From NCBI GenBank assembly GCA_000999025.1, contig LCFM01000003.1, positions 12,253 through 76,252 on the forward strand: a stretch of DNA of 64,000 nt, given 5' to 3'. A program made the position numbers and the translations under genes. A model generated the notes under the pieces. That model was not told the origin of the DNA and searched no databases. It worked only from the letters and a program-made list of their open reading frames with translations. Below are positions 12,342 to 58,622 of this stretch, in pieces. The stretch is from Parcubacteria group bacterium GW2011_GWA2_43_13. GTDB taxonomy: Bacteria; Patescibacteriota; Patescibacteriia; UBA9629; GWA2-43-13. Position 1 is the stretch's first letter. Every line of letters begins with the position of its first letter.

Positions 12342-12614
12342 TTATTCCACATTCTCATTCTCGTAATTCTCTGTCAAATACTCCACCGCCTTTTCATCAT
12401 CATCCGCGATCACTGTATCTGTATTCGGATCAACCAACACAGGAACATATCGCTGTCCTGATACTTTTTCAAGTTCATCACGCTCTTCAAGATTACGAGG
12501 AACGTTATGAATAATATACGTCATCCCCAAATCAGTGAGCGCTGTTCGCACTTTCTTGCAATATGGGCATTCCTCAAACTGATACAATTCAAGCATTTTT
12601 TTTGACTGTTCCAT
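12342..12614 (-). CDS. glutaredoxin-like protein
   Basis: CPYC active site (FEECPYCKKVRTAL), 90 aa. Confidence 0.8.
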   Translation of the reverse strand: MEQSKKMLELYQFEECPYCKKVRTALTDLGMTYIIHNVPRNLEERDELEKVSGQRYVPVLVDPNTDTVIADDDEKAVEYLTENYENENVE

Positions 12615-12690
12615 AGTACTTTATTTTAATACGGGCTAAAAACATCTGCTATCATAACGAAAAAATCCCTTTATTGCAAGGGGGGTCGGT

Positions 12691-12754
12691 GTAGAGACGC
12701 GGCGGTGCCACGTCTTATAGATACAAGAGACGCCCCAACGGGGCGCGTCTCTAC
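12691..12754. repeat. Family A composite element (unit Y-like GTAGAGACGCGGCGGTGCCACGTCTTATAG plus unit X GAGACGCCCCAACGGGGCGCGTCTCTAC)
   Basis: Read directly. Sits in the intergenic gap between two minus-strand genes. Confidence 0.8.
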
Positions 12755-12757
12755 ACT

Positions 12758-13306
12758 CTAATATAATGTTTTTTTATTCAAAAAGATGACTCTAAAAAAT
12801 TTATGTCGCCGAAAAAAATACTTATCACATGACACTGCCTTCGATCCGCTTGCAAATAGCAAAACAACTCCTATCACAATCATCAAGAGATTCAGTGTCC
12901 ATCCGGCCGCGCTCATCCAGCCGGAGAGAATAAAAAACATGGCATTCAATTTTATACTGCCGATCGCCGCGATATTCACCAAAAAACCAAGAATCAACAA
13001 AACACCAATAGTAACCTCTGCCCATTGCAAGAGTGTGCCTGCGGTGTGTGCGTTGGGAAGAATATAGTTGTGAAACAATGATGAAAACCACACAGGGACA
13101 TCTCCTGAAAGCATCTTATTGAGCGTCTGTTCGATGCCATTAACAAAATCAGGACTTTTCACTTTTTCATACCCGGCATGCAACCACACCGCACCCATCA
13201 TAATGCGGATCACTGAAAGCCAAAATGAACTGTATTTATCCGGCGCATTTCCTACTGATATGGACATAGTCATTAAACCACAAAAAACAAGAAACAAATA
13301 ACACAA
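12758..13306 (-). CDS. DoxX-family membrane protein
   Basis: Multi-TM 180-aa protein with a DoxX-like hydrophobic profile (MMGAVWLHAGYEKV). Confidence 0.5.
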   Translation of the reverse strand: MCYLFLVFCGLMTMSISVGNAPDKYSSFWLSVIRIMMGAVWLHAGYEKVKSPDFVNGIEQTLNKMLSGDVPVWFSSLFHNYILPNAHTAGTLLQWAEVTIGVLLILGFLVNIAAIGSIKLNAMFFILSGWMSAAGWTLNLLMIVIGVVLLFASGSKAVSCDKYFFRRHKFFRVIFLNKKTLY

Positions 13307-13348: not shown

Positions 13349-13588
13349 TTATACTGCTACCACTTCTATTACTTCTGGTACAATTTCTTTGAGTTGTTTT
13401 TCAATGCCGAATTTTAAAGTGAGATTCGAAATCGGGCAGTGTTCGCACGCACCCTGCAACGCCACAGTTACAACTCCATTTGTATAACTCACAAACGACA
13501 CATCCCCGCCATCTTGCTGAATCAATGGGCGAATTCCTTGAATCACTTTTTCAATTTTTTCTAATTCTGACATAGATATAGTATACAC
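13349..13588 (-). CDS. nfu: NifU-like C-terminal domain protein (Nfu-type Fe-S carrier)
   Basis: ALQGACEHCPIS motif (CxxC), 79 aa. Sits at the end of the suf operon. Confidence 0.75.
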   Translation of the reverse strand: MYTISMSELEKIEKVIQGIRPLIQQDGGDVSFVSYTNGVVTVALQGACEHCPISNLTLKFGIEKQLKEIVPEVIEVVAV

Positions 13589-13592
13589 ATTT

Positions 13593-13982
13593 TCACATTA
13601 TTACACCACGACTCAACGCTTCTCTTAAAGCGTCACGAACCAAAAGTGCACACTTGAGGCGCACTGGGGTAAGGGAAATGCCTAATAAATCTGTTACTGT
13701 TTCCGACGTCATTTGCTCTACTTCTTGGATTTCCTTCTCTTTTGCCCATTCAGTCAATAGAGAAGCGCTGGCAATGCATATCGCGCATCCATGGCCATCA
13801 AACCCAATAGCGACAATATTTGACAATTGACAATTGACAATTGACATTTGGACCCACACTTCAACCTCATCCCCACACAACGGATTAGAAACCTTACCAG
13901 AATAATGCGTAAAATCATCCAACCTCCCTCGGTTTCGCGGGTTTTTGTAATGATCTAAAATCTGCTCACGGTACATTGACAT
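13593..13982 (-). CDS. sufU: Fe-S cluster scaffold SufU/IscU-like, carrying an in-frame repeat insertion
   Basis: HYKNPRNRG ... CGDEV ... GCAICIASAS conserved scaffold motifs. The loop between them is expanded by MSIVNCQLSNIV, which is encoded by the family C repeat. Confidence 0.75.
   Translation of the reverse strand: MSMYREQILDHYKNPRNRGRLDDFTHYSGKVSNPLCGDEVEVWVQMSIVNCQLSNIVAIGFDGHGCAICIASASLLTEWAKEKEIQEVEQMTSETVTDLLGISLTPVRLKCALLVRDALREALSRGVIM
13816..13852. repeat. Family C tandem repeat (TTGACAA x4) inside sufU
   Basis: atatttgacaattgacaattgacaattgacatttgga, in frame. Confidence 0.8.
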
Positions 13983-14034: not shown

Positions 14035-14442
14035 ATGTTGTCACGAAAGATCCGGCGCACGCCTCATAGCCCAGTGCCACAAATAACAGTGAGTTACAAT
14101 ATAGTACCACAGGCGAACCTCCGCTCTGCGGACCTCCGCGAGGCGGACCTCCGCTCTGCGAACCTCCGCGAGGCGGACCTCCGCTCTGCGAACCTCAGCT
14201 GGGCGTTCCTCAACTGGGCGGACCTCCGCTCTGCGGACCTCCGCAAGGCGAACCTCCGCTCTGCGGACCTCCGCGAGGCGGACCTCCGCAAGGCGAACCT
14301 CCGCGGGGCGTTCCTCAACTGGGCGGACCTCCGCTCTGCGGACCTCCGCGAGGCGTTCCTCAGCGGAGCGAAATACAATGCACAAACCATGTTCCCCGAA
14401 GGATTTGATCCGAAAACCGCAGGAATGATCAAACAGGAATGA
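14035..14442 (+). CDS. pentapeptide-repeat protein
   Basis: ANLRSADLREADLRSANL repeats (A[DN]LxxA[DN]L). The underlying DNA is a 30-nt-period tandem repeat, so the antisense frames are also open. Confidence 0.55.
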   Translation: MLSRKIRRTPHSPVPQITVSYNIVPQANLRSADLREADLRSANLREADLRSANLSWAFLNWADLRSADLRKANLRSADLREADLRKANLRGAFLNWADLRSADLREAFLSGAKYNAQTMFPEGFDPKTAGMIKQE

Positions 14443-14508: not shown

Positions 14509-15780
14509 TTACAACCGCTTCTGTACACTTTTTATACCAACCACCAACCTCTCAACATCCTCTTCGGTATTATATACCCATACGCTTGCCCGACACGATG
14601 CGACAAGTCCTAAGTATTCATGCAAAGGCATAGCGCAGTGATGACCAGCGCGGATGGCAATATTTTGTTCATCCAATAATTGGGCTACATCATGAGCGTG
14701 GATGTTAGGGAAGTTAAACGAAATCAAACCAGAGCGTTTTTCAATCTCGCGAGGACCAAGAATCCAGTTTTCAGTTTTCATCTGCCAGCTGGCGGATCGG
14801 TTTTCAAATTTGACATTTGATAACTGACAACTGATATTTGAAAGTATTGCCTCCTCGTGCTTCCGTATATCATTCCAGCCCAAACTCTTTAACCAATTCA
14901 CTGCCGCGGCAAGCCCAATCGCGCCTGCGATATGTGGAGTGCCTGCTTCAAATTTATGCGGAACATCATTCCAAACCGAATAATCGCGATGCACTTCGCG
15001 GATCATATCCCCACCAGTTATAAACGGCTCCATCTCTTGCAGGCGTGATGACTTTGCGTATAACACGCCAATGCCGGTTGGGCCACCTAATTTATGCCCG
15101 GAAAACACCAGAAAATCACAATCTAAATCTCCCACATCCACTTTCATGTGAGGAACTGATTGCGAAGCATCAATCAATACTGGCACATGATGTTCATGCG
15201 CTTGTTTGATGATTTCTTTTATTGGATTGACCGTGCCAAGCACATTGGAGACATGGGTAAGCGCGAGGAAATTGATTGACTCAAAATAATGGTCAGGAAT
15301 AATCAATTCTCCATTTGCATCAACTTCCAAGTACCGTAACGTACTACCTTTGACATTTGACAACTGACATTTGACAACCGACTGCCACGGCACAATATTG
15401 CTGTGATGCTCGGCAATGGATAACCCAATAACCGCACCGTCACCCCCTCCTTTTAAAGGAAAGGGGAGGGGGTGGTTTCGCAACCACGCGTACGCGACTA
15501 AATTGATCGCCTCGGTCGCGTTGCGCGTAAAAATAATCTCGGAAGGATGCGCGCCAATAAAGCTGGCAACATCCTCCCGCGCCTGCTCATACGCCGCGGT
15601 GGCGCGATTAGAAAGCGCATAAATCCCCCTATGAACATTCGCGCTGTATTCGGTGTAATACTTGTTCATCGCGTCAATCACGCACTGCGGTTTTAGTGCT
15701 GTCGCCGCGCTATCTAAATACACCAAATCTGGATGATGGTTAAATATCGGAAATTCTTTTTTAATACTTTGATCAAACAT
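14509..15780 (-). CDS. sufS: cysteine desulfurase SufS (PLP-dependent), with three in-frame repeat insertions
   Basis: RAGHHCA active-site motif and the PLP lysine region (SGHKLGGPTG). The start was set at MFDQSIK to avoid overlap with the upstream gene. Confidence 0.85.
   Translation of the reverse strand: MFDQSIKKEFPIFNHHPDLVYLDSAATALKPQCVIDAMNKYYTEYSANVHRGIYALSNRATAAYEQAREDVASFIGAHPSEIIFTRNATEAINLVAYAWLRNHPLPFPLKGGGDGAVIGLSIAEHHSNIVPWQSVVKCQLSNVKGSTLRYLEVDANGELIIPDHYFESINFLALTHVSNVLGTVNPIKEIIKQAHEHHVPVLIDASQSVPHMKVDVGDLDCDFLVFSGHKLGGPTGIGVLYAKSSRLQEMEPFITGGDMIREVHRDYSVWNDVPHKFEAGTPHIAGAIGLAAAVNWLKSLGWNDIRKHEEAILSNISCQLSNVKFENRSASWQMKTENWILGPREIEKRSGLISFNFPNIHAHDVAQLLDEQNIAIRAGHHCAMPLHEYLGLVASCRASVWVYNTEEDVERLVVGIKSVQKRL
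14771..14844. repeat. Family C/E repeat in sufS (GCCAGCTGGCGGAT plus TTGACA-type heptamers)
   Basis: ctgccagctggcggatcggttttcaaatttgacatttgataactgacaactgatatttg is translated as NISCQLSNVKFENRSASWQMKTENW. Confidence 0.75.
15348..15384. repeat. Family C tandem repeat in sufS
   Basis: ctttgacatttgacaactgacatttgacaaccgactg is translated as KCQLSNVKGST. Confidence 0.8.
15441..15474. repeat. Family B-like palindrome in sufS (CACCCCCTCCTTTTAAAGGAAAGGGGAGGGGGTG)
   Basis: Imperfect hairpin translated as PLPFPLKGGGDG. Confidence 0.65.
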
Positions 15781-15802: not shown

Positions 15803-16192
15803 TTAATGACCATTCTTGCCACATCCGCACTGCCCCCCGCAACAACCATCCTGTGCCCCACTACCTCCGCAACACTCGTCATCCTCAATCATCACCACAA
15901 CCTCATCTCCCTCCACCAAAACCTTATACGTTTTCAATGGATGCGTCGCAGGCAATGCAAGCACTTTGCCGGTTTTGATATCAAACCGCGCGCCATGGCG
16001 AGGGCACTCAATAATATGATCGTCAATAATCACGCCCTGCACCAAAGACGCTCCTTTATGCGTGCACTCATCATCAAGGGCAAACCACCCATCTTGAAGA
16101 TGATACACAGTAATCTTTTTTCCACTAATCTCAAACCTCTTTTTTTTACCAATAGAAATATCACCTATTGGAATATTTAACTGTTTTGACAT
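15803..16192 (-). CDS. Rieske [2Fe-2S] domain protein with a cysteine-rich C-terminal tail
   Basis: CTHKGASL and CPRHGARF Rieske boxes. The tail is ECCGGSGAQDGCCGGQCGCGKNGH. Confidence 0.75.
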   Translation of the reverse strand: MSKQLNIPIGDISIGKKKRFEISGKKITVYHLQDGWFALDDECTHKGASLVQGVIIDDHIIECPRHGARFDIKTGKVLALPATHPLKTYKVLVEGDEVVVMIEDDECCGGSGAQDGCCGGQCGCGKNGH

Positions 16193-16197
16193 AGATA

Positions 16198-16845
16198 CTA
16201 TGATTGAGGTATTAATTTCATCACTTCGAATAAAAATCCTTTGATGATCATTTCTTGCGCTAATGCCTTTTCTATACCACGACTTTGGAGATAAAACAAC
16301 TGCCTATCATCAATCCTACCAGTCGTTGCGGCATGGCTTGCTTTGACATCATTGGCTTCTATTTCCAACTCCGGCTTGCTTTCTGATTTTGCATGTTTTG
16401 ATAGCAACAACACCCGATTTTCTAAAAACGCGTTTGATTGCTGGGCTGGTTTATCAATTTTGATCATGCCGTTGAACACTTGTTTACTCGCATCTTTCCC
16501 CACGCCTTTGAATAATGTTTTTGATTGCGAGCGCGGACCAAGATGATGAACAGTAAGATTGAATTGATAATGACTATCGTGTTCAGCAAGAACTGCGCCA
16601 CAGATTTCTGCCCGTGCGTCTGCGTGGAGTTCAACGCGCAGAGTACGGCGCGTCATCGTACCCTCTCCTAATGTAGGAGAGGGTACGATGACACTCGTCG
16701 GTACAAAAAAATACCGCACAACTCCAAACGGCTCTACCGTAATCACCGCCTCTCCCGAAACTCCCCCATCATCAACCACCACCAACTCATCGTTGGGATT
16801 AACACAAATATTATTCATCATATCAGACCAATGCAATAACTTCAT
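16198..16845 (-). CDS. sufD: SufD-like Fe-S assembly protein (short)
   Basis: C-terminal SufB/D core ([27 protein letters not shown]). The ORF contains family B element 16651-16692, which also offers an internal SD+ATG (start MTRRTLRVEL at 16656). Confidence 0.65.
   Translation of the reverse strand: MKLLHWSDMMNNICVNPNDELVVVDDGGVSGEAVITVEPFGVVRYFFVPTSVIVPSPTLGEGTMTRRTLRVELHADARAEICGAVLAEHDSHYQFNLTVHHLGPRSQSKTLFKGVGKDASKQVFNGMIKIDKPAQQSNAFLENRVLLLSKHAKSESKPELEIEANDVKASHAATTGRIDDRQLFYLQSRGIEKALAQEMIIKGFLFEVMKLIPQS
16651..16692. repeat. Family B element (CGTCATCGTACCCTCTCCTA-ATG-TAGGAGAGGGTACGATGAC)
   Basis: 19-bp near-perfect inverted repeat. Both orientations read AGGAGAGGG-N4-ATG. Confidence 0.8.
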
Positions 16846-16881: not shown

Positions 16882-18276
16882 TCAGCCAACCGATCCCTCC
16901 ATCTCCAACTCAATCAACCGATTCATCTCCACCGCGTACTCCAAAGGCAATTCTTTTACAATCGGCTCTATAAACCCATTCACCATCATTAAACTTGCTT
17001 CTTGCGGCGACAAACCACGGGATTGTAAATAAAACAACTGCTCTGTCCCTATTTTAGAAACCGTTGCTTCATGGCCAATAGAAACATCATCATTGTCAAT
17101 TTCCATCACCGGATAGGTGTCCGAACGCGACGCCTCATCCAAAATCAATGCATCGCACTGTACATTGGATTTTACGCCATACGCCTCCGGATGAATTTTT
17201 AATAACCCGCGATACGAAGTTCTGCCGCCATGATGACTGATGGATTTAGAAACAATATGCGAGGTAGTAAGCGGAGCCACATGCACCACTTTACCGCCCG
17301 CGTCTTGATGCTGACCTTCGCCTGCCATTGCCAAAGATAAAATATCAGCGCGCGCGCCTTTGCCCATTAAATACACAGATGGATATTTCATGGTAACTCG
17401 GCTCCCAAAATTACCATCCACCCATTCCATAGTCGCATCCTCATACGCGACTGCGCGTTTCGTCACGAGGTTGTACACATTTTTTGACCAATTCTGCACC
17501 GTGGTATACCGCACACGCGCGCCACGCAATACAATAATCTCCACCACCGCGCTGTGCAAAGATGCTGATTGATAGATAGGCGCGGTACAACCTTCCACAT
17601 AATGCACAAAACTGCCTTCATCCGCGATAATCAAGGTCCGTTCAAACTGCCCCATATTCTGCGCGTTGATGCGAAAATACGCTTGCAATGGCGTGTTGAC
17701 TTGCACTCCTGGAGGAACATACACAAAACTTCCGCCGCTCCACACCGCGCTATTTAAAGCGGCAAACTTGTTATCCCCAGAAGGAATCACGGTGCCAAAA
17801 TATTGTTTTACCAAATCAGGATGCTCTCGCATCGCGGTTTCAACATCAGAAAACACCACCCCTAAATCAACAAGCTCTTTACGCATATTATGATACACCA
17901 CTTCACTATCATACTGCGCGCCGACTCCCGCTAAAAAATCCTGCTCCATTTGCGGGATGCCTAAACGATCAAATGTTTTTTTAATATCTTTAGGCAAATC
18001 AGACCATTCTTGCGTACTTCGCTCTGTTGGTTTGAGATAATAATACATCTCATCAAAATTGATGCCTGACAAATCCGCGCCCCAATGTGGCATCTTTTTT
18101 TTACAAAACACATCATACGCATGCAGGCGATACTCCAGCATCCATTGCGGTTCATTTTTATAACGCGAAATCATTTCCACAATCGCACGAGACAACCCCT
18201 TGGGGGTTTTAAAAATATGAGCTTCAGTATCCTTAAATCCGTATTGATAATCCGGTTGTATTTGAATAAATGACAT
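16882..18276 (-). CDS. sufB: Fe-S cluster assembly protein SufB
   Basis: 464 aa with a conserved SufB C-terminus ([20 protein letters not shown]). Confidence 0.9.
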
Positions 18277-18343: not shown

Positions 18344-19075
18344 TTACTGACTTTCTCTATACCCCATTGCTTCAACTTGTTCTGCCAACTCCTTTCCTCC
18401 ACTCTCCATAATCCTCCCCTGTTTCATAATATGCACATGCGTTGGAGTAAGATATTTCAAGATACGATTATAATGAGTAATAATCAACACGGACTTTTCA
18501 GGCGACATCCACTCATTGATGGATTGCGCAACCGCTTGCAGTGCATCAATATCCAAACCGGAATCAATCTCATCTATCACCGCAAACTTAGGATCAAGCA
18601 TTTTTAATTGCAAAATCTCTGCTTTCTTTTTTTCACCGCCTGAAAATCCTTCATTCACATTTCGATCGCTAAACTCTTCGGCAATCCCTAACGGTTGCAT
18701 CGCAGATGTAATCTCTTTTTGAAATTCAGCAACCGAACCGACTTCGGCGTGCGTGCGCTGATACGCAGTGCGCAAAAAACTGGAAAGCGATACCCCCGGA
18801 ATCTCGACAGGATACTGAAAAGCTAAAAAGACGCCCTTGCGAGCTCGCTCTTCTGGTGAAAAAGTCACAATACTTTTGCCTTCAAAAAGAATCTCCCCAT
18901 GAGTAACCTCAAACCCGGGGTTACCTGCAATCACCTGCGCAAGCGTTGATTTTCCGCTCCCATTCGGCCCCATAATCGCATGAATCTCGCCTGCGCGTAT
19001 CTCCAAAGATAGATTATGAATAATCACTTTTTGTTCCACACAAACATCCAAACCACGAACAAATACCATTGACAT
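18344..19075 (-). CDS. sufC: Fe-S cluster assembly ATPase SufC
   Basis: Walker A GPNGSGKST, ABC signature LSGGEKK, Walker B ILDEIDSGLD. Confidence 0.9.
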   Translation of the reverse strand: MSMVFVRGLDVCVEQKVIIHNLSLEIRAGEIHAIMGPNGSGKSTLAQVIAGNPGFEVTHGEILFEGKSIVTFSPEERARKGVFLAFQYPVEIPGVSLSSFLRTAYQRTHAEVGSVAEFQKEITSAMQPLGIAEEFSDRNVNEGFSGGEKKKAEILQLKMLDPKFAVIDEIDSGLDIDALQAVAQSINEWMSPEKSVLIITHYNRILKYLTPTHVHIMKQGRIMESGGKELAEQVEAMGYRESQ

Positions 19076-19213: not shown

Positions 19214-20383
19214 TTATCCATGTTTTCGTTTTATCCCTTCCAAACACTTTTGTACAATCTTGACTGTTTTTTTAATTTCTTTTTCTGTTGTGTATTTTGA
19301 CAATGAAAATCGAATAAATGTTTGGGCATCGTCTTCATCATATCCCAAGGTCTGAATCACATGCGATGACGTATGCGCCCCAGACGCGCATGCGGAACCA
19401 GAAGATACTGCAAGCCCTTCTGCGTCAAAACGCGTTACAAGAACATCATGGTCAATTCCTGGAAACAACATACCTAAAATATGAGGAGCGCTATCATCAG
19501 GATTGATCACTTTCACAACTCCTTTGCATTTTTTTTCAAGTTTATGTTTGAGCAATAACCGCAAATCATCAACTCGATCTGTATATTCCGCGCCCTCATC
19601 GCTCACCACCATTGCCGCGGCACCAAGCCCGACAATCCCTGAAACATTTTCTGTACCAGGACGCATTCCGTATTCCTGACTTCCTCCATATAATATGGGA
19701 TGAAACGGAATTCCTTCTTTTAAATACAGTGCGCCAACTCCTTTGGGGCCATGGATTTTATGGCCACTGATAGTTGCGCAATCAACACCCAATGTTTCAA
19801 CCCTGCAATCCATATACCCAAACGCTTGCACAATATCTGAATGAACTATTGCGGCGGCGTTTTTCTTTTTTACAATCCGCACAATATCACCAATAGGCTG
19901 AACGCTCCCGATTTCATTATTCACCATCATAACAGAAACAAGCGTTGTCTCGCGTATTACCTCGGCTGAGAGTTGTTCAAGGTCAATCATGCCAGCTTTA
20001 TCAACAGGTATCACTGATACTGCCCAGCCCTCGCGTTCAAGATATTCAGCTGACTCCAAAATAGAATGATGTTCAATAGCAGAGATAACAATATGCCTGC
20101 CTTCTGATTGCCGCGCGCGCGCAATCCCTATAATGGCCATTACATTCGCCTCTGTCGCGCCACTGGTAAAAATAACTTCCCGAGGAGCGCACCCAAACAA
20201 CAACGCAACACGCGACCGCGCCTTATCAACAGCTGATCGCGCCTCCCTGCCAATACTATGAGAAGAAGACGGATTGCCAACCATACCCTCGCAATAGGGC
20301 TTCATGGCAACGGCTACCTGTTCATCAATCATTGTTGTGGCGGCATTGTCTAAATAAATCATAGGTCTTTGGTCACAACTCAC
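19214..20383 (-). CDS. cysteine desulfurase (NifS/IscS-like class V aminotransferase)
   Basis: PLP lysine region SGHKIHGPKGVGALY and SSGSACAS active-site loop. Confidence 0.85.
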   Translation of the reverse strand: MSCDQRPMIYLDNAATTMIDEQVAVAMKPYCEGMVGNPSSSHSIGREARSAVDKARSRVALLFGCAPREVIFTSGATEANVMAIIGIARARQSEGRHIVISAIEHHSILESAEYLEREGWAVSVIPVDKAGMIDLEQLSAEVIRETTLVSVMMVNNEIGSVQPIGDIVRIVKKKNAAAIVHSDIVQAFGYMDCRVETLGVDCATISGHKIHGPKGVGALYLKEGIPFHPILYGGSQEYGMRPGTENVSGIVGLGAAAMVVSDEGAEYTDRVDDLRLLLKHKLEKKCKGVVKVINPDDSAPHILGMLFPGIDHDVLVTRFDAEGLAVSSGSACASGAHTSSHVIQTLGYDEDDAQTFIRFSLSKYTTEKEIKKTVKIVQKCLEGIKRKHG

Positions 20384-20775
20384 TACATCATCTGCTGAAG
20401 AGTTACCTTATCAAGCGCATCCCAAACCCTGCGTTCAACATGAGCCCATATATCTTTCTTCGCGCACTTCTTTTGCGAACAATCACACCCTAATCGTTTT
20501 GTGCAGTTGCGCAATGACGGCTTTACCCGCTCAACTGTTTTTACAATATCGGCAAGCGAAACAGATTCTGCCTGTTTTTTTAGATAATATCCGCCGCGCG
20601 CGCCACGCACAGAGGAGACAATTTTTTTCTTTTTCAAATCCTGAGCGATTTTTTCGCAATACTCAAACGGCAACCCGCTTTCAGCCGCAACAACCCTCAA
20701 AGAAACAGGATGGTCTTCTTTGGCAAGAGCAACAAGAAGCACAACAGCATAATGGGCTTTAGTCGAAAAAAACAT
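20383..20775 (-). CDS. Rrf2-family transcriptional regulator (IscR-like)
   Basis: Rrf2 HTH N-terminus. ATGA overlap with the downstream desulfurase gene. First gene of the suf operon. Confidence 0.75.
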   Translation of the reverse strand: MFFSTKAHYAVVLLVALAKEDHPVSLRVVAAESGLPFEYCEKIAQDLKKKKIVSSVRGARGGYYLKKQAESVSLADIVKTVERVKPSLRNCTKRLGCDCSQKKCAKKDIWAHVERRVWDALDKVTLQQMM

Positions 20776-30778: not shown

Positions 30779-31003
30779 TTACTTCTGTGGCCAGATTTGC
30801 ATGCCACTCTCATCTTCCACAATAATCGCGTCAACAGGGCATGACTTTGCCGATTCAAGCAACTCCGCATCACTGGTTTGCGAAACCGTGTCTTTTACAA
30901 TCGCCTTGCCCTCTGAATCGAGTTCAAAGGCCAAAGGAGCAAGCGCAACGCAAGATGCGGCGCCGATGCATAAATCACGGACTACACGAACTTTGTATGA
31001 CAT
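30779..31003 (-). CDS. small single-cluster ferredoxin
   Basis: CIGAASC ... SCP ligand pattern, about 74 aa. Confidence 0.7.
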   Translation of the reverse strand: MSYKVRVVRDLCIGAASCVALAPLAFELDSEGKAIVKDTVSQTSDAELLESAKSCPVDAIIVEDESGMQIWPQK

Positions 31004-31088
31004 AGAAGGTAAAGACAAAAAACTACTACACCCCCCCTTATAAAAAACAGAATACACCCTATTTTTTATATTTACAACTGTCTATAAA

Positions 31089-33641: not shown

Positions 33642-34184
33642 GTGATTATACCGCCTCTTATCCAAAAGTCCAGAAAAAGTATATACTATACAGATATGGT
33701 TCAAGAAAAGAAAAAACTGCGCATAGGGTGGTTTACATTCAGCTGTTGCGAGGATAGCACGGTTTTGATGACTGAAATTTTAAATGACCACTGGCAGGAA
33801 TGGGCGCCATTGTTGGATATCCGCCATGCGCGGGTATTGCAAAAAGAAAATATTTTAGATTCTATGGATGTCGCGTTTGTGGAAGGCGCGCTGGCAAGCG
33901 AAGAGCATATCGAAAAACTCAAAGAAATTCGCACCCTCGCGACCAAGGTGGTTGCCGTTGGCGCGTGCGCCTGCATTGGTATGCCTTCTGGAAACAGAAA
34001 TCAGTTTGATGATCACACTCAAGAAGAAATATCATTTTTAACCGCGAGATTTAGTCATTTGCCCAAAGTGTTAAAATTAGAAGATGTCGTAGCAGTTGAT
34101 GCAAAACTCCCCGGCTGTCCCATGAATGAACAGCAATTTATTCATTTGATGAAAGCGATGTTGCAGACATTTCGTATCACCTAA
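33642..34184 (+). CDS. [NiFe]-hydrogenase small subunit (group 3-like, minimal)
   Basis: Proximal-cluster motifs FSCCEDS and VAVGACACIG; VEGALASEE matches the HoxY/MvhG/HydD-type block. An alternative start at M19 (33696) is possible. Confidence 0.65.
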   Translation: MIIPPLIQKSRKSIYYTDMVQEKKKLRIGWFTFSCCEDSTVLMTEILNDHWQEWAPLLDIRHARVLQKENILDSMDVAFVEGALASEEHIEKLKEIRTLATKVVAVGACACIGMPSGNRNQFDDHTQEEISFLTARFSHLPKVLKLEDVVAVDAKLPGCPMNEQQFIHLMKAMLQTFRIT

Positions 34185-34200
34185 ATATTGCTGTATTCCA

Positions 34201-34267
34201 AATATCAAATGTCAGTTATCAGTTTTCAAATTTGACAACTGAAAATTGACAACTGAAAACTGCCAGT
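34201..34267. repeat. Family C tandem repeat between the hydrogenase subunit genes
   Basis: aatatcaaatgtcagttatcagttttcaaatttgacaactgaaaattgacaactgaaaactgccag. Confidence 0.8.
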
Positions 34268-35599
34268 ATGCACTTAATAGACCTCGACCTCACCATTGAC
34301 GAAATGACCAAAGTAGAAGGCGCGGCATCTGTTGATGTCAAAATTCGCAGTGGCGTGGTTGAATCAGTCAAGTTCGGCATCACAGAATACAAACGATTTT
34401 ATACCCAAGCCATGCGCGGAAAATCCATCACTGCCCTGCCCCAACTATTAGCCCGAATTTGTGGCACCTGCAGTAACGCGCATTTACTGTGCAGTATTGA
34501 AGCATGCGAACACGCGCTTGGCATCACCCCATCCCCTCAAACCCAAATTCTAAAACGACTTACCATGTATGGATTAAACATCCGAGATCACGCATTACAT
34601 TTGTATCTTTTTGTTGCTCCTGACTTGCGTAATAAAGACAATTTTTTAAGTTTTGACGAGCATGATCCTATAGAACACGATATGCTCCACGATGCATTTG
34701 CCATCAAAGCCGCTGGCAATCATCTCGCCCAAATCGTCGCAGGCAGAAGCGTGCATGGCATGTATCCTGCTATTGGAGGATTTACCAAAACCCCTACGCA
34801 ACAAGAAACGCAGTCAATTATTAAGCAACTTCAAGAGGTACGGCCACGCGTATTGCGACTCATTAAAACATTTGAACAATGCGATTGGAAATTTGATCGC
34901 ACAACCAAGTATATGGGTATGTCGGCTGATCATTATTCTTTTTTAGAAGGAGTTATCATCAGCGATACTGGCCAACGGATAGAAGAACAGGACTACCACA
35001 ATCATTTGGAACATGTCGTCATCCCCTATTCTCAAGCATCTGGATACAAACACGATAATGAATGTTATATGGTTGGTGCTCTCGCGCGTGTTAATTTATC
35101 AAAGGAAAAACTGCATCCGAATACAAAAAAAGACGCAAATTCTGCTATTGCGCTCTTTCCATCAACCAATATCTATCACAATAATCTTGCACAGGCGATT
35201 GAAATTTTGCATTGCATTGATGACGCGATTGACCTGCTTAATAATACCCAATTTAAACAAGAACCCCTCCCAAAACCGGTGTTTCGCGAAGCAATGGGCA
35301 TTGGAGTTGTAGAAGCGCCGCGCGGGATGCTGTATCATCGCGTGCATATTGATGATAACGGCATTGTGATGGAAGGCGATATTGTGGTACCGACCGGACA
35401 AAATCAAATCAATATTGAACAAGATTTAAAAACCCTTATTCAGCGATTGATTGATAATGATGTTGAAAATAAACATGAAATCCAGCACGAGATGGAAAAA
35501 CTCATCCGCGCCTACGACCCCTGCATGTCCTGCGCCAGTCATTTTTTAAAAATCAATTGGATAGAAAAAAATAACATCCTTACATTCTCAAGTTTATAA
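34268..35599 (+). CDS. [NiFe]-hydrogenase large subunit (group 3-like)
   Basis: N-terminal TKVEGAAS (RIEGH-like) and RICGTCSNAH (L1), with C-terminal DPCMSCASHF (L2, DPCxxCxxH). Confidence 0.8.
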   Translation: MHLIDLDLTIDEMTKVEGAASVDVKIRSGVVESVKFGITEYKRFYTQAMRGKSITALPQLLARICGTCSNAHLLCSIEACEHALGITPSPQTQILKRLTMYGLNIRDHALHLYLFVAPDLRNKDNFLSFDEHDPIEHDMLHDAFAIKAAGNHLAQIVAGRSVHGMYPAIGGFTKTPTQQETQSIIKQLQEVRPRVLRLIKTFEQCDWKFDRTTKYMGMSADHYSFLEGVIISDTGQRIEEQDYHNHLEHVVIPYSQASGYKHDNECYMVGALARVNLSKEKLHPNTKKDANSAIALFPSTNIYHNNLAQAIEILHCIDDAIDLLNNTQFKQEPLPKPVFREAMGIGVVEAPRGMLYHRVHIDDNGIVMEGDIVVPTGQNQINIEQDLKTLIQRLIDNDVENKHEIQHEMEKLIRAYDPCMSCASHFLKINWIEKNNILTFSSL

Positions 35600-35992: not shown

Positions 35993-37672
35993 TCACACTG
36001 TCCGGTTCGCCAGCGCCAAATGCATGTTAGTAAAGCGCGCTAAATTTGCGACTTGCCGCGCATGCAACCTCTCGCATGGCAAATCCCAGTGCATGGAAAT
36101 CCAATCACCTATAGCCGCATCATCCATTGACCCATCATCAGCCAAATGACGCCTGATAACGCGTTGCTCAACCGTAGCAAGATACAACTTCGCGCCATCA
36201 AACCGAATCGGCTGGCGCTCAACTGTAATTACTGGTCCGTCAATCGCAATCACTTTCCCCCAGCTAATCCTACAAGAATCAATACTCTCCACAGTATGCG
36301 GCTCCTCTTTATGCCCCATCCTCTGCCAGATGTTCATCACCTGAAACGAATGGTGCATTTTTGCCCCGCCAGATATTTTATCCTCAATATATCCAAAATA
36401 CTTACTACCAAACCGATCTTTTACTTTGAGTGTATCTTTCAAGTGGATATACATATCCTGCTTGGATGGTGTATCCAAAAGCTCATTTCCAACCCAATAC
36501 GCTTCAACCACTTTTTCATGCAAAGGGTCGGAAAGATGATTGGCGTCAGCAATGGCTTTTAAATAGGGATACATCACTTCAAACTGTGACAACAAATACC
36601 GCAGACCATAGTCCGCGGTGTTTTCGCCAAGATACGCCAACATCTCGCCCGATTTATCTGGTCCGCAAAAGTGCAATCTGTTCGGTGAAAACGCGTATCG
36701 CGCGCAACGAATAATCCCCTGCTCTTGAGATAGTAATTGAGGTGAGACCATAGAAACCATCGTCTCCCTCTCCTTTATTAAGGAGAGGGCTGGGGTGAGA
36801 TTTTTTTGTCGTGATGACATCACAAATACACCTGCTCCAGCCACAAGCAATATCATCGGAACAATCAATGCGCTTGGCCATTGTCCTGTTGTGATGTTTT
36901 GCAGTACAACCGTAATCGGAAACGCCAACACTAACACTGTTGATACAAACGAAGCGGATAATTTTTTTAATCCCGTATACCAACACGCAACATACCCACA
37001 CAACACCATACCTGTCACCAATGCCCAACCCACCTGCTCCCATGTTTGAGGAATCAACGCTTGTCCGCTCCCTTGAGCAATACTGTAAACAATCAAAAGC
37101 ACCGCACCAAACGCCATCCGTGCCCAAGCTCCAACCAGAGCCGGAATATTCTGCAATATTTTTTTTGCAATGATCGTCTCAATTGCCCATAAAATCGTAG
37201 CCCCCAATGCAAGAAAAAATCCTATTCCCCAGTCCCATCCCTTTAGGCCGCCTAACATCACCACGCCTATCATCATCACCACTATCCCAAGCCATTGCAA
37301 TCTACTCACCTTTTCTTTCAAGTAAACGGCAGACATAACAGCAACCCACACAAATAGGGTTTTATGAATAAACGCGGCTTGCGTTGCCGGCACCAACGTC
37401 AAACTCTTGAAAAATAAGACAAATGGCACAGAACCGCCAATCACACCGATTACAACAAGGTTGATCCATTGCTTCTTATTTAACAATTTCAATACTCGCC
37501 ATTGGGCAACCGCGCCCACCAACCCTGCCAGCAAACATGCGGCAATGATATTTTTTGTTGTTGTATACGCTACCGCATCAGACCAACTTCCCACACCAAA
37601 TTTATTGATAAACACCGCCACGCCACTGATAAGCGCTGTAATAAAGGGTAAAATAAATACATTATTTTTCAT
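35993..37672 (-). CDS. continuous ORF: N-terminal DMT/EamA-type transporter (about 37672-36800) joined in frame, through family B element 36758-36818, to a 255-aa unknown soluble domain (internal SD+ATG at 36760)
   Basis: Ten hydrophobic helices typical of EamA. The element reads AAGGAGAGGGAGACG-ATGGTTTCT on the coding strand. These are likely two genes, or a fusion created by the element. Confidence 0.5.
   Translation of the reverse strand: MKNNVFILPFITALISGVAVFINKFGVGSWSDAVAYTTTKNIIAACLLAGLVGAVAQWRVLKLLNKKQWINLVVIGVIGGSVPFVLFFKSLTLVPATQAAFIHKTLFVWVAVMSAVYLKEKVSRLQWLGIVVMMIGVVMLGGLKGWDWGIGFFLALGATILWAIETIIAKKILQNIPALVGAWARMAFGAVLLIVYSIAQGSGQALIPQTWEQVGWALVTGMVLCGYVACWYTGLKKLSASFVSTVLVLAFPITVVLQNITTGQWPSALIVPMILLVAGAGVFVMSSRQKNLTPALSLIKERETMVSMVSPQLLSQEQGIIRCARYAFSPNRLHFCGPDKSGEMLAYLGENTADYGLRYLLSQFEVMYPYLKAIADANHLSDPLHEKVVEAYWVGNELLDTPSKQDMYIHLKDTLKVKDRFGSKYFGYIEDKISGGAKMHHSFQVMNIWQRMGHKEEPHTVESIDSCRISWGKVIAIDGPVITVERQPIRFDGAKLYLATVEQRVIRRHLADDGSMDDAAIGDWISMHWDLPCERLHARQVANLARFTNMHLALANRTV
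36758..36818 (-). repeat. Family B element (reverse orientation relative to the 3035 copy)
   Basis: The reverse complement reads CTCACCCCAGCCCTCTCCTTAATAAAGGAGAGGGAGACGATGG. Confidence 0.8.
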
Positions 37673-38353: not shown

Positions 38354-39577
38354 ATGCAAAACTACGATTACATCATTATCGGTGGTGGAGTGGCAGGTAC
38401 GGTTGCCGCAGAAACCATTCGGCAGAATGATACAAACGGGACAATCGCCATTATCTCGGATGAACCATACCCGTTTTACTCCCGCATCATGCTATCAAAG
38501 CCAAACTTTTTTTTAGGCAAAATGTCGTTTGAGTCAATTTTCCGGCATGATAAGCAATGGTATATTCAAAACAATATAGATTTAAAAAATAGTATCAGGG
38601 CAACTACTCTCAATACTGATACAAAAAAGGTTACACTCAATACTAACGAATCCCTTACATACAACAAACTCCTCCTTGCCCTTGGCGTCTGCGCCCGAAC
38701 ATTAGGACTCCCAAACGAAACGATAAGCGGTGTCTATTGCGTTCGCACGCTTGATGATGCAAAAGGCATCATGAAAACCATAAAAACGGCAAAAAAAGCC
38801 GTTGTTGTTGGCGCTGGATTTATTGGGTTTGAAATGTGCGATATTCTCAAACTCGCTGGCCTTGATGTTACCCTCATTATCCGCGAGCCATTCTTTTGGG
38901 GACACCTCTTACATAACAAGGCCGGAAGTATTATAGAAAAAGCAATAACTGAAAAAGGAGTAACTATCATAAAAGAAGATGAAGTCGCAACTATTGAAGG
39001 CGCGGAAATAGTAACTGGTATCACAACAAAAAAGCAGGTCCATCTTAATGCAGATCTCCTTGCGATTGGTGTTGGATCCGTATGTCCTAAAGATATCCTT
39101 TTACAAAAAACAATGGAAACAAGAAATGGCATTATTGTGAACGAATATCTTGAAACCAATATGCCTGATATATGGGCCGCTGGTGATTGCGCTGAATATT
39201 TTGATACTATTTTGGATGAATATATCCAAATGGGAAACTGGGCAAATGCGCAATTGCAAGGAAAAATTGCCGGCCTCAATATGACTGGCACAAAAACTGC
39301 TTTTAGCGCCGTAACTAATTATACGTGTAGCGGATTTGGGCTTTCAATCGCTTTTGTAGGAGATGTAAAAAGCGGAGAAGGTAAAGAGTTAATAGAACGT
39401 ATGCCAGACGACACACATTCGTATGGCCACTTTATTCTTAAAGATAACCGCATTATTGGCGCGGCGCTCATTAACAGAACATCAGAACTGAATACCATTA
39501 CTACATTGATACAAAACAAAATTGATATTTCAAATAAAAAAGAACTCCTTGTATCAGGAGATATTGCAATATCGTAG
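38354..39577 (+). CDS. FAD-dependent pyridine nucleotide-disulfide oxidoreductase (NADH oxidase / rubredoxin reductase-like)
   Basis: Two Rossmann motifs (IIGGGVAGTVAAE and VVVGAGFIGFEM). The stop TAG is part of the family A hairpin. Confidence 0.75.
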   Translation: MQNYDYIIIGGGVAGTVAAETIRQNDTNGTIAIISDEPYPFYSRIMLSKPNFFLGKMSFESIFRHDKQWYIQNNIDLKNSIRATTLNTDTKKVTLNTNESLTYNKLLLALGVCARTLGLPNETISGVYCVRTLDDAKGIMKTIKTAKKAVVVGAGFIGFEMCDILKLAGLDVTLIIREPFFWGHLLHNKAGSIIEKAITEKGVTIIKEDEVATIEGAEIVTGITTKKQVHLNADLLAIGVGSVCPKDILLQKTMETRNGIIVNEYLETNMPDIWAAGDCAEYFDTILDEYIQMGNWANAQLQGKIAGLNMTGTKTAFSAVTNYTCSGFGLSIAFVGDVKSGEGKELIERMPDDTHSYGHFILKDNRIIGAALINRTSELNTITTLIQNKIDISNKKELLVSGDIAIS

Positions 39578-57778: not shown

Positions 57779-57798
57779 AAGTGTTCATGAACCCACTC

Positions 57799-57893
57799 CG
57801 TCATCCGTAGGGTGGCACCTCTCCTTGTTAAGGAGAGGAGGACGACGGCGTATCCCCCCTCCTTAACAAGGAGGGGGTAGGGGGTGGTCTACC
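57799..57893. repeat. two Family B elements head-to-head (forward copy ...CACCTCTCCTT-GTTA-AGGAGAGGAGGACGACGGCG; reverse copy CCACCCCCTACCCCCTCCTT-GTTA-AGGAGGGGGG)
   Basis: Intergenic between the ABC permease and ATPase genes. Confidence 0.8.
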
Positions 57894-57896
57894 TCC

Positions 57897-58613: not shown

Positions 58614-58622
58614 ACTATCGAA

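What the first reader, a model, noticed from the sequence alone, without database searches (positions are those of the whole stretch)
15803..16192. Rieske [2Fe-2S] protein with Cys/Gly-rich C-terminal tail embedded in the suf operon
A 129-aa Rieske-domain gene lies between sufD and sufS. Its tail ECCGGSGAQDGCCGGQCGCGKNGH holds seven cysteines in 20 residues, a metallothionein-like or Fe-S/metal-delivery motif. The operon is long: Rrf2-nifS-sufC-sufB-sufD-Rieske-sufS-sufU-nfu. Rieske proteins are not canonical Suf components. This one could be an electron donor or iron-delivery partner for cluster assembly.
Basis: partly seen in the sequence, partly recalled or inferred. Interest (0 to 1): 0.5.

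Follow-up and report, generated by a model that had tools for sequence, protein, structure and literature searches.

The report
Suf-operon Rieske ferredoxin with cysteine tail
A small iron-sulfur electron-carrier gene sits inside the operon that builds iron-sulfur clusters, as it does in many bacterial phyla, and in this lineage it has gained a rare, conserved cysteine-rich tail resembling the metal-binding tail of the E. coli protein SlyD.

Summary
A 129-aa Rieske [2Fe-2S] ferredoxin gene (15803-16192, minus strand) lies 5 nt after sufD and 22 nt before sufS. The operon reads Rrf2, IscS/NifS-like, SufC, SufB, SufD, Rieske, SufS, SufU, Nfu, in a Patescibacteria (CPR) genome. The tail has six cysteines, not seven.

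The Rieske gene itself is not unusual. Of the 160 closest homologous loci I fetched, from about ten phyla, 144 sit beside suf genes on the same strand. A suf-cluster Rieske ferredoxin has been purified from Streptomyces, and Rieske-SufT fusions are published.

The tail is the rarer part.
- It is not a DNA repeat.
- Its six Cys codons are conserved in relatives of 55-69% identity, with dN/dS similar to that of the domain.
- Cys-rich tails appear in three separate lineages of this family.
- AlphaFold2 predicts it disordered.
- Its cysteine layout (CCGG...CCGG...CGC, then His) matches the Ni/Zn/Co-binding tail of E. coli SlyD.

Most likely this is a low-potential electron donor dedicated to SUF cluster assembly, carrying a flexible thiolate arm that binds a metal ion or a labile cluster. 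Which metal, and what the arm does, remain untested.

Verdict: a new variant of a known kind, of moderate interest.

The parts
15803..16192 (-). Rieske [2Fe-2S] ferredoxin gene, 129 codons plus a TAA stop
   Evidence: ORF. Pfam Rieske E=3.7e-18. Best PDB sequence match is TodB at 1.5e-17. AF2 plus Foldseek give TodB, CarAc and BphA3 with TM 0.8-0.9.
15887..16192 (-). Rieske fold, residues 1-102, including ligand boxes C43-T-H45-K-G-A and C63-P-R-H66-G-A (codons within 15995-16066)
   Evidence: pLDDT is above 90 over residues 1-102. Ligand columns are conserved. There is no second Cys pair in the boxes, so this is the oxygenase-ferredoxin (low-potential) type; that last step is inference from the sequence.
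15806..15886 (-). C-terminal tail, residues 103-129: acidic linker EDDE, then CCGG-x6-CCGG-x-CGC-x4-H
   Evidence: Sequence. pLDDT is below 50 for residues 107-129. No tandem repeat. Six Cys codons are conserved in L001 and L085 with TGT/TGC changes, dN/dS 0.13-0.42. Same Cys layout as the E. coli SlyD tail.
16198..16845 (-). Short SufD (215 aa, core only); its stop is 5 nt before the Rieske ATG
   Evidence: PF01458 E=4.3e-51; TIGR01981 sufD 178 bits, below that model's 222-bit cutoff. Short SufD (211-246 aa) is seen in all CPR-type loci, against 390-500 aa elsewhere.
14509..15780 (-). SufS cysteine desulfurase; its ATG is 22 nt after the Rieske stop
   Evidence: TIGR01979 sufS at 496 bits, above the cutoff. 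Start fixed by alignment to relatives.
16882..18276 (-). SufB scaffold
   Evidence: TIGR01980 at 717.8 bits.
18344..19075 (-). SufC ATPase
   Evidence: TIGR01978 at 322.5 bits.
19214..20383 (-). IscS/NifS-like class I cysteine desulfurase
   Evidence: PF00266. NCBIfam IscS subfamily PRK02948 at 307 bits, above its cutoff of 304.
20383..20775 (-). Rrf2-family regulator, first gene of the operon
   Evidence: PF02082 E=2.3e-30; TIGR00738 above cutoff.
13593..13982 (-). SufU/IscU-like sulfur-transfer or scaffold protein
   Evidence: PF01592 E=4.3e-28. TIGR01994 at 88.8 bits, just under its cutoff of 92.5.
13349..13588 (-). Nfu-type cluster carrier
   Evidence: PF01106 E=1e-26.
12342..13306 (-). 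DoxX/DoxD membrane protein (12758-13306) and CPYC glutaredoxin (12342-12614), conserved downstream neighbours on the same strand
   Evidence: Pfam. Same order in relatives L001-L004 and L085. Whether they belong to the operon is inferred from synteny only.
38354..39577 (+). Possible reductase partner: FAD/NAD(P)H oxidoreductase of the putidaredoxin-reductase/BphA4/TodA family, 22 kb away
   Evidence: Pyr_redox_2 plus Rubredoxin_C. PDB matches: 3lxd 1.7e-35, BphA4 about 1e-27, TodA 1.2e-26. The link to the Rieske protein is inference only.

Best explanation
The gene encodes a soluble Rieske [2Fe-2S] ferredoxin of the low-potential, oxygenase-ferredoxin type. It belongs to a widespread orthologous group that is built into suf operons.

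It is made together with SufD and SufS; the intergenic gaps are 5 and 22 nt. It most likely feeds single electrons into Fe-S cluster assembly on SufBC(D)/SufSU, either reducing persulfide sulfur to sulfide or keeping iron ferrous. That is the job the operon-encoded ferredoxin does in the ISC system and the central domain of NifU does in NIF.

In this Patescibacteria lineage the protein carries an extra 23-residue tail after an acidic linker. The tail is intrinsically disordered and has six cysteines and a terminal histidine. It most likely acts as a flexible thiolate arm that binds a metal ion (Fe2+ by context; Zn2+ or Ni2+ are possible) or a labile Fe-S cluster, and holds it next to the assembly machinery.

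Shown: the fold, the ligands, the operon position, the conservation of the suf linkage, and the conservation and ordered motif of the tail.

Inferred: the electron-donor role, metal binding by the tail, and the identity of the metal.
For: Fold and ligands:
- Rieske fold and ligands are confirmed.
- The ligand boxes read CTHKGA and CPRHGA. They lack the disulfide cysteines of bc1-type Rieske proteins (class assignment from established knowledge).

Genomic linkage:
- The gene is tightly packed between sufD and sufS.
- All four tail-bearing relatives whose flanks could be read have the order SufD-Rieske-SufS. A fifth, P0175, follows a short SufD.
- 74 of 80 genome loci and 70 of 80 metagenome loci of the closest homologues have suf genes within 2.5 kb on the same strand. 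They come from Chloroflexota, Eisenbacteria, Planctomycetota, Eremiobacterota, Melainabacteria, Nitrospinota, Poribacteria and Proteobacteria.

Precedent:
- Planctomycete versions are fused to the Fe-S maturation factor SufT/DUF59 (PMC4982691).
- The Streptomyces suf-cluster Rieske Fdx4 is SufR-regulated, carries a Rieske cluster and transfers electrons (PMC12979805).
- Cluster assembly needs an electron donor. For SUF, only scaffold-bound FADH2 is proposed (PMC13066941).

Tail:
- There is no tandem repeat in the tail DNA.
- Cys codons are conserved with synonymous changes. Tail dN/dS is 0.13-0.42, against 0.12-0.16 for the domain.
- The ordered motif arises in 0.07% of shuffles.
- The tail is predicted disordered.
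- Cys-rich tails occur in three separate lineages of the family.
- The CC...CC...CxC layout is the same as the six-Cys metal-binding tail of E. coli SlyD (PMC10653786).

Possible reductase:
- A BphA4/TodA-type ferredoxin reductase is encoded in the same window.
Against: - No experiment links any suf-operon Rieske protein to cluster assembly.
- The only characterised member (Streptomyces Fdx4) was studied as a P450 partner.
- E. coli and B. subtilis SUF work without such a protein.
- The tail is rare. Only three 50%-identity clusters among the best 150 of 16,440 hits have one, and none of the 160 loci from the genome and metagenome scans does. So it cannot be essential to the family's function.
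- The tail lacks the histidine run that gives SlyD much of its Ni capacity.
- The resemblance to SlyD is a short motif, not homology. phmmer of the tail against PDB found nothing, and a word-index search of the last 40 residues (the tail plus part of the final strand) also found nothing.
- The candidate reductase is 22 kb away, next to a hydrogenase, and may serve another partner.
Confidence: 0.55

Rival explanations
1. The tail is a SlyD-like nickel or zinc store and delivery arm that serves the [NiFe]-hydrogenase of this organism. It rides on an abundant small protein, and its location in the suf operon is incidental to the tail's job.
For: - The cysteine layout is the same as in the E. coli SlyD tail, which binds Ni, Zn and Co and supports hydrogenase maturation (PMC10653786).
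- The window encodes a [NiFe]-hydrogenase large subunit with RICGTCS and DPCMSCASH motifs, plus a small subunit.
- No hyp or slyD gene was seen in the 64 kb window.
Against: - The tail has one histidine, against 13 in SlyD.
- All tail-bearing copies sit in suf operons, not beside hydrogenase genes.
- 64 kb is too little sequence to say that hyp or slyD are absent from the genome.
Confidence: 0.12
2. The tail is a redox-active or sulfur-carrying arm. Its vicinal cysteines would accept persulfide sulfur from SufS/SufU, or cycle between dithiol and disulfide, relaying sulfur or reducing equivalents to SufB rather than binding a metal.
For: - The gene lies directly upstream of sufS.
- The C-terminus is flexible and bears cysteines.
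- A dithiol glutaredoxin and a DoxX protein are conserved just downstream of the operon.
- By analogy with mobile C-terminal Cys-Cys arms such as that of MerA (my own knowledge).
Against: - SufU already fills the sulfur-transfer role in this operon.
- Six clustered thiols preceded by an acidic linker look more like a metal site.
- No known sulfur relay uses this motif.
Confidence: 0.13
3. The tail ligates a second Fe-S cluster of its own, possibly at a dimer interface through the CGC motif as in A-type carriers. The protein would then be a two-cluster ferredoxin or a cluster carrier.
For: - The QCGCG / ECGCG ending resembles the C-terminal CGCG motif of IscA/SufA carriers (my own knowledge).
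- No sufA gene is present in the operon.
- C107, C117 and C122 are invariant across five tail-bearing sequences.
Against: - The operon already has an Nfu carrier.
- Motif spacing varies a lot between lineages.
- There is no A-type carrier fold, and no family matched besides Rieske.
Confidence: 0.12
4. The tail is a functionally neutral low-complexity extension, and the protein is simply the ordinary suf-associated Rieske ferredoxin.
For: - Most family members have no tail.
- C-terminal extensions in this family are very variable. P0100 and P0125 have acidic or Ser-rich tails.
Against: - All six Cys codons are kept at 55-69% protein identity, with saturated synonymous change and low dN/dS.
- The motif order is non-random.
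- Cys-rich tails recur in three lineages.
Confidence: 0.05
5. It is the ferredoxin component of a ring-hydroxylating oxygenase system, as its database name suggests.
For: - The best NCBIfam and PDB matches are HcaC, TodB, BphA3 and CarAc.
- Sources name homologues 'non-heme iron oxygenase ferredoxin subunit'.
Against: - Scores fall below the equivalog cutoffs: 92.6 against 113 for PRK09965, and 92.7 against 150 for HcaC.
- No oxygenase subunit was found among the roughly 55 window ORFs scanned against Pfam; about 20, mostly short, were not scanned.
- 90% of the closest homologues are suf-linked.
Confidence: 0.03

Closest known systems
Rieske-type ferredoxins of aromatic-ring dioxygenase systems (TodB, BphA3/BphF, CarAc)
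   Same: - About 100-residue Rieske fold.
- CxH...CxxH ligands.
- No loop disulfide.
- 29-37% identity, TM 0.8-0.9.
   Different: - No oxygenase partner nearby; it is encoded inside a suf operon.
- Falls below the NCBIfam equivalog cutoffs.
- Carries a Cys-rich tail.
Streptomyces peucetius Fdx4, the Rieske ferredoxin of the suf gene cluster (PMC12979805)
   Same: - A Rieske Cys2His2 [2Fe-2S] ferredoxin encoded within, and co-regulated with, the suf genes.
- A proven electron carrier that is reduced by a ferredoxin reductase.
   Different: - A different regulator (SufR against Rrf2 here).
- No Cys-rich tail is reported.
- Its role in SUF is likewise unstudied.
Rieske-SufT (DUF59) fusion proteins, 'S7 architecture' (PMC4982691)
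   Same: - A suf-linked Rieske ferredoxin with a functional module added at its C-terminus.
- Seen here in Planctomycetota loci (L035, L038, L042, L059, L061, L062).
   Different: The added module is a folded DUF59/SufT domain behind a long Ala/Pro linker, not a short cysteine tail.
C-terminal metal-binding tail of E. coli SlyD (also the H. pylori SlyD and HspA tails)
   Same: - A disordered C-terminal extension.
- Six Cys arranged CCGG...CCGG...CGC, then His.
- Known to bind Ni2+, Zn2+ and Co2+ (PMC10653786).
   Different: - The carrier domain is an FKBP prolyl isomerase.
- 13 His against 1 here.
- About 50 residues against 23.
- This is a motif resemblance, not demonstrable homology.
ISC ferredoxin (Fdx) and the central [2Fe-2S] domain of NifU
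   Same: An operon-encoded [2Fe-2S] electron donor dedicated to Fe-S cluster assembly (PMC13066941). This is the functional analogy proposed here.
   Different: - Cys4 ligation.
- Unrelated folds.
- Belong to different assembly systems.

Membership tests
Rieske [2Fe-2S] domain proteins (PF00355) | Profile match above the curated cutoff | tested here: met
   65.6 bits against a cutoff of 20.3, E=3.7e-18.
Rieske [2Fe-2S] domain proteins (PF00355) | Two ligand boxes, C-x-H and C-x-x-H, about 17-20 residues apart | tested here: met
   C43-T-H45 and C63-P-R-H66. All four are invariant in the 22-sequence alignment. In 119 homologues C43, C63 and H66 are invariant and H45 is at least 90% conserved.
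Rieske [2Fe-2S] domain proteins (PF00355) | Three-sheet Rieske fold | tested here: met
   AF2 pLDDT above 90 for residues 1-102. Foldseek to TodB, CarAc and BphA3 at E about 1e-9, TM 0.8-0.9.
Rieske [2Fe-2S] domain proteins (PF00355) | Actually binds a His2Cys2 [2Fe-2S] cluster | not testable with these tools
   Needs EPR or UV-vis on purified protein.
Low-potential (oxygenase-ferredoxin type) Rieske subclass | Lacks the loop disulfide cysteines and Ser/Tyr H-bond donors of bc1/b6f Rieske proteins (boxes CTHLGC / CPCHGS) | tested here: met
   The boxes read CTHKGA and CPRHGA. The best matches are oxygenase ferredoxins, with bc1/b6f types much weaker. The potential itself was not measured.
Ring-hydroxylating dioxygenase ferredoxin component (HcaC/TodB/AndAb equivalogs) | Score above the NCBIfam equivalog cutoff | tested here: not met
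   92.6 against 113 (PRK09965); 92.7 against 150 (HcaC); 64.8 against 150 (AndAb).
Ring-hydroxylating dioxygenase ferredoxin component (HcaC/TodB/AndAb equivalogs) | Encoded with oxygenase alpha/beta subunits | tested here: not met
   The neighbours are suf genes. No oxygenase was found among the roughly 55 window ORFs scanned against Pfam; about 20, mostly short, were not scanned.
suf-operon-associated Rieske ferredoxins (informal group: Streptomyces Fdx4, Rieske-SufT fusions) | Located inside a suf operon on the same strand, without room for its own promoter | tested here: met
   5 nt after the sufD stop and 22 nt before the sufS start.
suf-operon-associated Rieske ferredoxins (informal group: Streptomyces Fdx4, Rieske-SufT fusions) | Closest homologues in other genomes are also suf-linked | tested here: met
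   144 of 160 loci. The CPR relatives have the same gene order.
suf-operon-associated Rieske ferredoxins (informal group: Streptomyces Fdx4, Rieske-SufT fusions) | Participates in Fe-S cluster assembly | not testable with these tools
   No experiment exists for any member. Needs reconstitution or genetics.
SlyD-type C-terminal metal-binding tail | C-terminal, disordered, Cys/His-rich extension with CCGG and CGC motifs | tested here: met
   The tail CCGG-x6-CCGG-x-CGC-x4-H compared with SlyD CCGG-x13-CCGG-x5-CGC-H. pLDDT is below 50.
SlyD-type C-terminal metal-binding tail | Attached to an FKBP/IF-chaperone domain, and histidine-rich | tested here: not met
   The only domain is Rieske. There is one His in the tail.
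SlyD-type C-terminal metal-binding tail | Binds divalent metal ions | not testable with these tools
   Needs ICP-MS, ITC or native MS.
Metallothioneins | Match to a metallothionein family profile, with Cys making up about 30% of a free-standing small protein | tested here: not met
   No metallothionein Pfam or NCBIfam hit. The Cys-rich part is a 23-residue appendage (6 of 23 residues are Cys).
A-type Fe-S carriers (IscA/SufA) | HesB/IscA fold with C-x(n)-C-G-C ligands | tested here: not met
   Only the short CGCG motif is shared. No Fe-S_biosyn/IscA family hit.

The most novel reading that the evidence does not exclude
The tailed Rieske protein would be a two-in-one donor for the SUF machinery. 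The Rieske cluster supplies the electrons. The acidic linker and six-thiolate arm capture Fe2+ (or a nascent cluster) and hand it to the truncated SufD-SufB scaffold. That would give the SUF pathway a dedicated, operon-encoded iron donor, a component that has never been identified. The three independent gains of such tails would mark lineages that have merged the two functions.
Probability: 0.15. Interest if true: 0.75.

Novelty: new variant of a known kind. Interest (0 to 1): 0.42.

Why it matters
Every Fe-S assembly system needs sulfur, iron and electrons. For SUF, the electron source is only proposed (scaffold-bound FADH2 in E. coli). The iron donor has not been identified (my own knowledge of the field, not checked in the papers read here).

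A ferredoxin gene is kept inside suf operons in 90% of 160 loci, across about ten phyla. That makes it an obvious and barely studied candidate for the missing electron donor.

The tailed CPR version adds a compact natural construct in which a redox centre and a probable metal-binding arm are on one 129-residue protein. It is easy to express and test. Patescibacteria have minimal genomes, so what they keep is informative.

If the tail turns out to be a nickel, zinc or sulfur arm instead, it is still a clean example of convergent recruitment of a SlyD-like thiolate tail onto an unrelated carrier protein.

Tried and rejected
1. I searched for the tail by sequence, to find other protein families carrying it. 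A 40-residue C-terminal query found no candidates in the word-index search, not even the 99%-identical P0001, so that tool is unsuitable for this query.

2. I scanned all six frames of the window for other stretches with at least 5 Cys in 25 residues. Nothing else resembles the CCGG/CGC tail motif, and most of the other hits lie in short unannotated frames.

3. I tested the idea that the tail compensates for the truncated SufD. It fails, because the CPR locus L169 has a short SufD (228 aa) with a Rieske protein whose tail has no cysteines.

4. I tested the tandem-repeat or slippage origin of the tail. TRF finds repeats elsewhere in the operon but none in 15806-15886.

5. I rejected the metallothionein, A-type carrier and dioxygenase-component memberships (see the membership tests).

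6. Literature searches for an explicit description of a Rieske ferredoxin as a SUF component found only the Streptomyces Fdx4 paper and the SufT-fusion note. Several other hits mention Rieske proteins only as bc1 or b6f clients.

They therefore missed the closest Patescibacteria relatives and cannot give the true frequency of tails within CPR.
Full report
**What is there**

The minus-strand ORF 15803-16192 encodes 129 residues. Residues 10-90 match Pfam Rieske at E=3.7e-18, 65.6 bits against a cutoff of 20.3. The ligand boxes C43-T-H45 and C63-P-R-H66 are present. All four ligands are invariant in the 22-sequence alignment. In 119 homologues C43, C63 and H66 are invariant and H45 is at least 90% conserved.

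The closest solved proteins by sequence are the ferredoxins of toluene, biphenyl, naphthalene and carbazole dioxygenases, at E=1.5e-17 to about 1e-12. An AlphaFold2 model built on 119 sequences has pLDDT above 90 for residues 1-102. It superposes on TodB, CarAc and BphA3 with TM 0.8-0.9.

The boxes read CTHKGA and CPRHGA. They lack the extra cysteine pair of bc1/b6f Rieske proteins. From established knowledge of the family, I infer the low-potential ferredoxin class.

**The operon**

All genes lie on the minus strand:

| Gene | Coordinates |
|---|---|
| Rrf2 | 20383-20775 |
| IscS/NifS-like desulfurase | 19214-20383 |
| SufC | 18344-19075 |
| SufB | 16882-18276 |
| short SufD | 16198-16845 |
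| Rieske | 15803-16192 |
| SufS | 14509-15780 |
| SufU | 13593-13982 |
| Nfu | 13349-13588 |

- The Rieske ATG is 5 nt after the sufD stop.
- The sufS ATG is 22 nt after the Rieske stop.
- The longer sufS ORF from TTG 15888 would overlap the tail. It is not supported by alignment to relatives.
- A DoxX/DoxD protein and a CPYC glutaredoxin follow on the same strand, and they are syntenic in relatives.

The organism is a member of the Patescibacteria (CPR). The closest named relative of the protein, P0002 at 69% identity, comes from a 'Patescibacteria group bacterium' MAG.

**Is a Rieske gene in a suf operon unusual?**

No. I fetched the 80 best-matching loci from one-genome-per-species contigs and the 80 best from metagenome contigs. 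I then located suf genes in them by tblastn with the window's own proteins.

- 74 of 80 genome loci and 70 of 80 metagenome loci have SufB, C, D, S or U within 2.5 kb on the same strand.
- Most of the exceptions among the metagenome loci are contigs too short to tell. Three of the six genome-locus exceptions (L037, L051, L077) have a full 8 kb of upstream flank with no adjacent suf gene.
- The loci come from Chloroflexota, Eisenbacteria, Planctomycetota, Eremiobacterota, Melainabacteria, Nitrospinota, Poribacteria and some Proteobacteria.
- Two arrangements dominate: SufD-Rieske-SufS, as here, and SufS-SufU-Rieske.
- In Planctomycetota the Rieske domain is fused through a long Ala/Pro linker to a DUF59/SufT domain. 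That architecture was published in 2016 (PMC4982691).
- In Streptomyces peucetius the suf cluster contains the Rieske ferredoxin Fdx4. It is de-repressed with the suf genes in a sufR mutant. It has been purified with a Rieske-type spectrum and transfers electrons from a ferredoxin reductase to a P450 (PMC12979805).

So the family is a widespread accessory of SUF that has been noticed before but is functionally unexplained. It is misleadingly named 'non-heme iron oxygenase ferredoxin subunit' by annotation pipelines. It misses the equivalog cutoffs of the true dioxygenase components. No oxygenase was found among the roughly 55 window ORFs I scanned against Pfam. About 20 ORFs, mostly short, were not scanned.

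**The tail**

Residues 103-129 are EDDE-CCGGSGAQDGCCGGQCGCGKNGH. That is six cysteines (107, 108, 117, 118, 122, 124) and a terminal histidine.

*It is not a simple DNA repeat.* Tandem Repeats Finder reports repeats elsewhere in the operon but none in the tail.

*It is not strain-specific.*
- P0002 (69% identical) ends DDDCCKDKETPDGCCGGQCGCDL.
- P0003 (69% by BLASTP) ends DDACCKDEETPDDCCGGECGCGK.
- P0004 (56% by BLASTP) ends GDCESDTEEEKGCGCTNCACGKISNLK.
- All three lie between SufD and SufS.

*It is under purifying selection.*
- In a codon alignment of the window, L001 and L085, all six Cys codons are kept with TGT/TGC differences.
- Tail dN/dS is 0.13-0.42, against 0.12-0.16 for the domain. 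Synonymous sites are near saturation and the tail has few sites, so these are rough figures.

*The motif order is not random.* Two CCGG plus one CGC appear in 0.07% of composition-preserving shuffles.

*It is predicted disordered.* AlphaFold2 gives pLDDT below 50 for residues 107-129.

**How common is the tail?**

I searched a profile that included the tail columns against 1.84 billion representative proteins. It gave 16,440 hits. Among the best 150, only three 50%-identity clusters carry Cys-rich tails:

- The window's own cluster.
- P0104, with a 77-residue tail holding 14 Cys.
- P0175, which ends ...GTACACGGKCEHH and is encoded directly after a 211-aa SufD.

None of the 160 loci from the genome and metagenome scans has a Cys-rich tail. 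In an identity matrix and NJ tree of the domains, the three tailed groups are separated by tail-less relatives. P0104 is closest to P0100 and P0125, and P0175 is distant from both other groups. Repeated gain is therefore the simplest reading, but a tree on about 100 residues is weak evidence.

**What the tail resembles**

I translated slyD from E. coli K-12. Its C-terminus is ...DGCCGGHGHDHGHEHGGEGCCGGKGNGGCGCH.

- Its six cysteines have the same layout as here: CCGG, spacer, CCGG, spacer, CGC, then a terminal or near-terminal His.
- That tail binds Ni2+, Zn2+ and Co2+, and it is needed for nickel insertion into [NiFe]-hydrogenase (PMC10653786).
- The window's tail is shorter and has one histidine instead of thirteen.
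- This is a motif-level resemblance, not homology.
- The C-terminal CGCG also recalls the CGC ligands of A-type carriers (my own knowledge), but nothing else of that family is present.

**Context that bears on mechanism**

- The window encodes a [NiFe]-hydrogenase, so this cell handles nickel. The small-subunit-like gene is at 33642-34184. The large subunit is at 34268-35599 and has RICGTCS and DPCMSCASH motifs.
- The window also encodes a 407-aa flavoprotein at 38354-39577 of the putidaredoxin-reductase/BphA4/TodA family. That is the family which reduces Rieske ferredoxins in dioxygenase systems.
- Neither gene is near the suf operon, so both are leads rather than evidence.
- SufD is truncated to its core (211-246 aa) in all CPR-type loci, against 390-500 aa elsewhere. 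This holds for CPR locus L169 too, whose Rieske tail has no cysteines. The tail is therefore not simply compensating for the short SufD.

**Most likely mechanism**

- *Shown:* a Rieske ferredoxin of the oxygenase-ferredoxin type is co-encoded with SufD and SufS. It belongs to an orthologous group that is suf-linked across phyla. In this lineage it bears a conserved, ordered, disordered six-Cys tail.
- *Inferred:* it supplies electrons to cluster assembly. The ISC ferredoxin and the central domain of NifU do this in their systems. For SUF, only scaffold-bound FADH2 has been proposed (PMC13066941).
- *Inferred:* the tail is a mobile thiolate arm that binds a metal ion or a labile cluster close to the machinery.
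- Iron is favoured by the operon context and the acidic linker. Nickel or zinc is favoured by the SlyD precedent. A sulfur-relay or dithiol role and a second-cluster role remain open.
- I put 0.55 on the combined statement. Confidence is much higher for identity and suf linkage, and lower for the metal.

**Novelty and score**

The Rieske-in-suf association is already known in outline. The tail appears undescribed in the literature I could search, and it is rare. I class the finding as a new variant of a known kind, with moderate interest (0.42). The most novel reading not excluded is that the protein is a combined electron and iron donor for SUF. I give that probability about 0.15, and it would be of high interest if true.

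Noticed in passing
window 13820-13850 (in sufU), 14810-14830 and 15349-15382 (in sufS), 34232-34259 (gap between the hydrogenase subunit genes): Heptanucleotide tandem repeats (TTGACAA / TTGACAT / CTGACAA), with 14 matches against 1.3 expected by chance. Inside sufS (twice) and sufU they encode the same peptide, CQLSNV/I. In relative L085 the two sufS sites instead both carry YQVSGIGLKPE. Genome-specific short repeats therefore sit at homologous, variable loop positions of essential genes.
   Followed up: partly
window 14035-14442 (+), between sufS and sufU on the opposite strand: A 135-aa pentapeptide-repeat ORF (Pfam E=9.7e-31) built on a 15-nt tandem array (14112-14349). A similar antisense pentapeptide ORF lies at the same place in relative L085 (2980-3309). 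It is absent from L001-L004, where sufU follows sufS directly.
   Followed up: partly
window 33642-34184 (+) and 34268-35599 (+): A two-gene [NiFe]-hydrogenase. The small-subunit-like protein matches PF01058. The large subunit matches PF00374 and has RICGTCS and DPCMSCASH nickel-site motifs. No hyp maturation genes were seen among the window ORFs scanned.
   Followed up: partly
window 38354-39577 (+): A 407-aa FAD/NAD(P)H oxidoreductase of the putidaredoxin-reductase/BphA4/TodA ferredoxin-reductase family (Pyr_redox_2 plus Rubredoxin_C). It is a candidate reductase for the Rieske ferredoxin, or for the 4Fe-4S ferredoxin at 30779-31057.
   Followed up: partly
window 16198-16845 (-); loci L001-L004, L085-L087, L169: SufD is cut down to its C-terminal core (211-246 aa) in all CPR-type suf operons. 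It is 390-500 aa in the other phyla sampled.
   Followed up: partly
window 46937-52453 (-): A 1838-aa ORF with no Pfam match at E<=0.001. It is followed by small DUF5663 and DUF5654 proteins.
   Followed up: no
window 55138-56448 (-): An OLD-family ATPase plus TOPRIM nuclease (AAA_15/AAA_21 plus OLD-like TOPRIM), a type of protein found in anti-phage defence systems. It lies next to a MacB/FtsX-ABC-HlyD efflux set (56540-60383).
   Followed up: no
locus L085 3942-4357: In one relative, a HicB-like/HicA toxin-antitoxin pair is inserted between sufU and nfu inside the suf operon.
   Followed up: no
window 35993-37672 (-): A 559-aa fusion of an EamA-type transporter with DUF6390, lying convergent with the hydrogenase large-subunit gene.
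   Followed up: no
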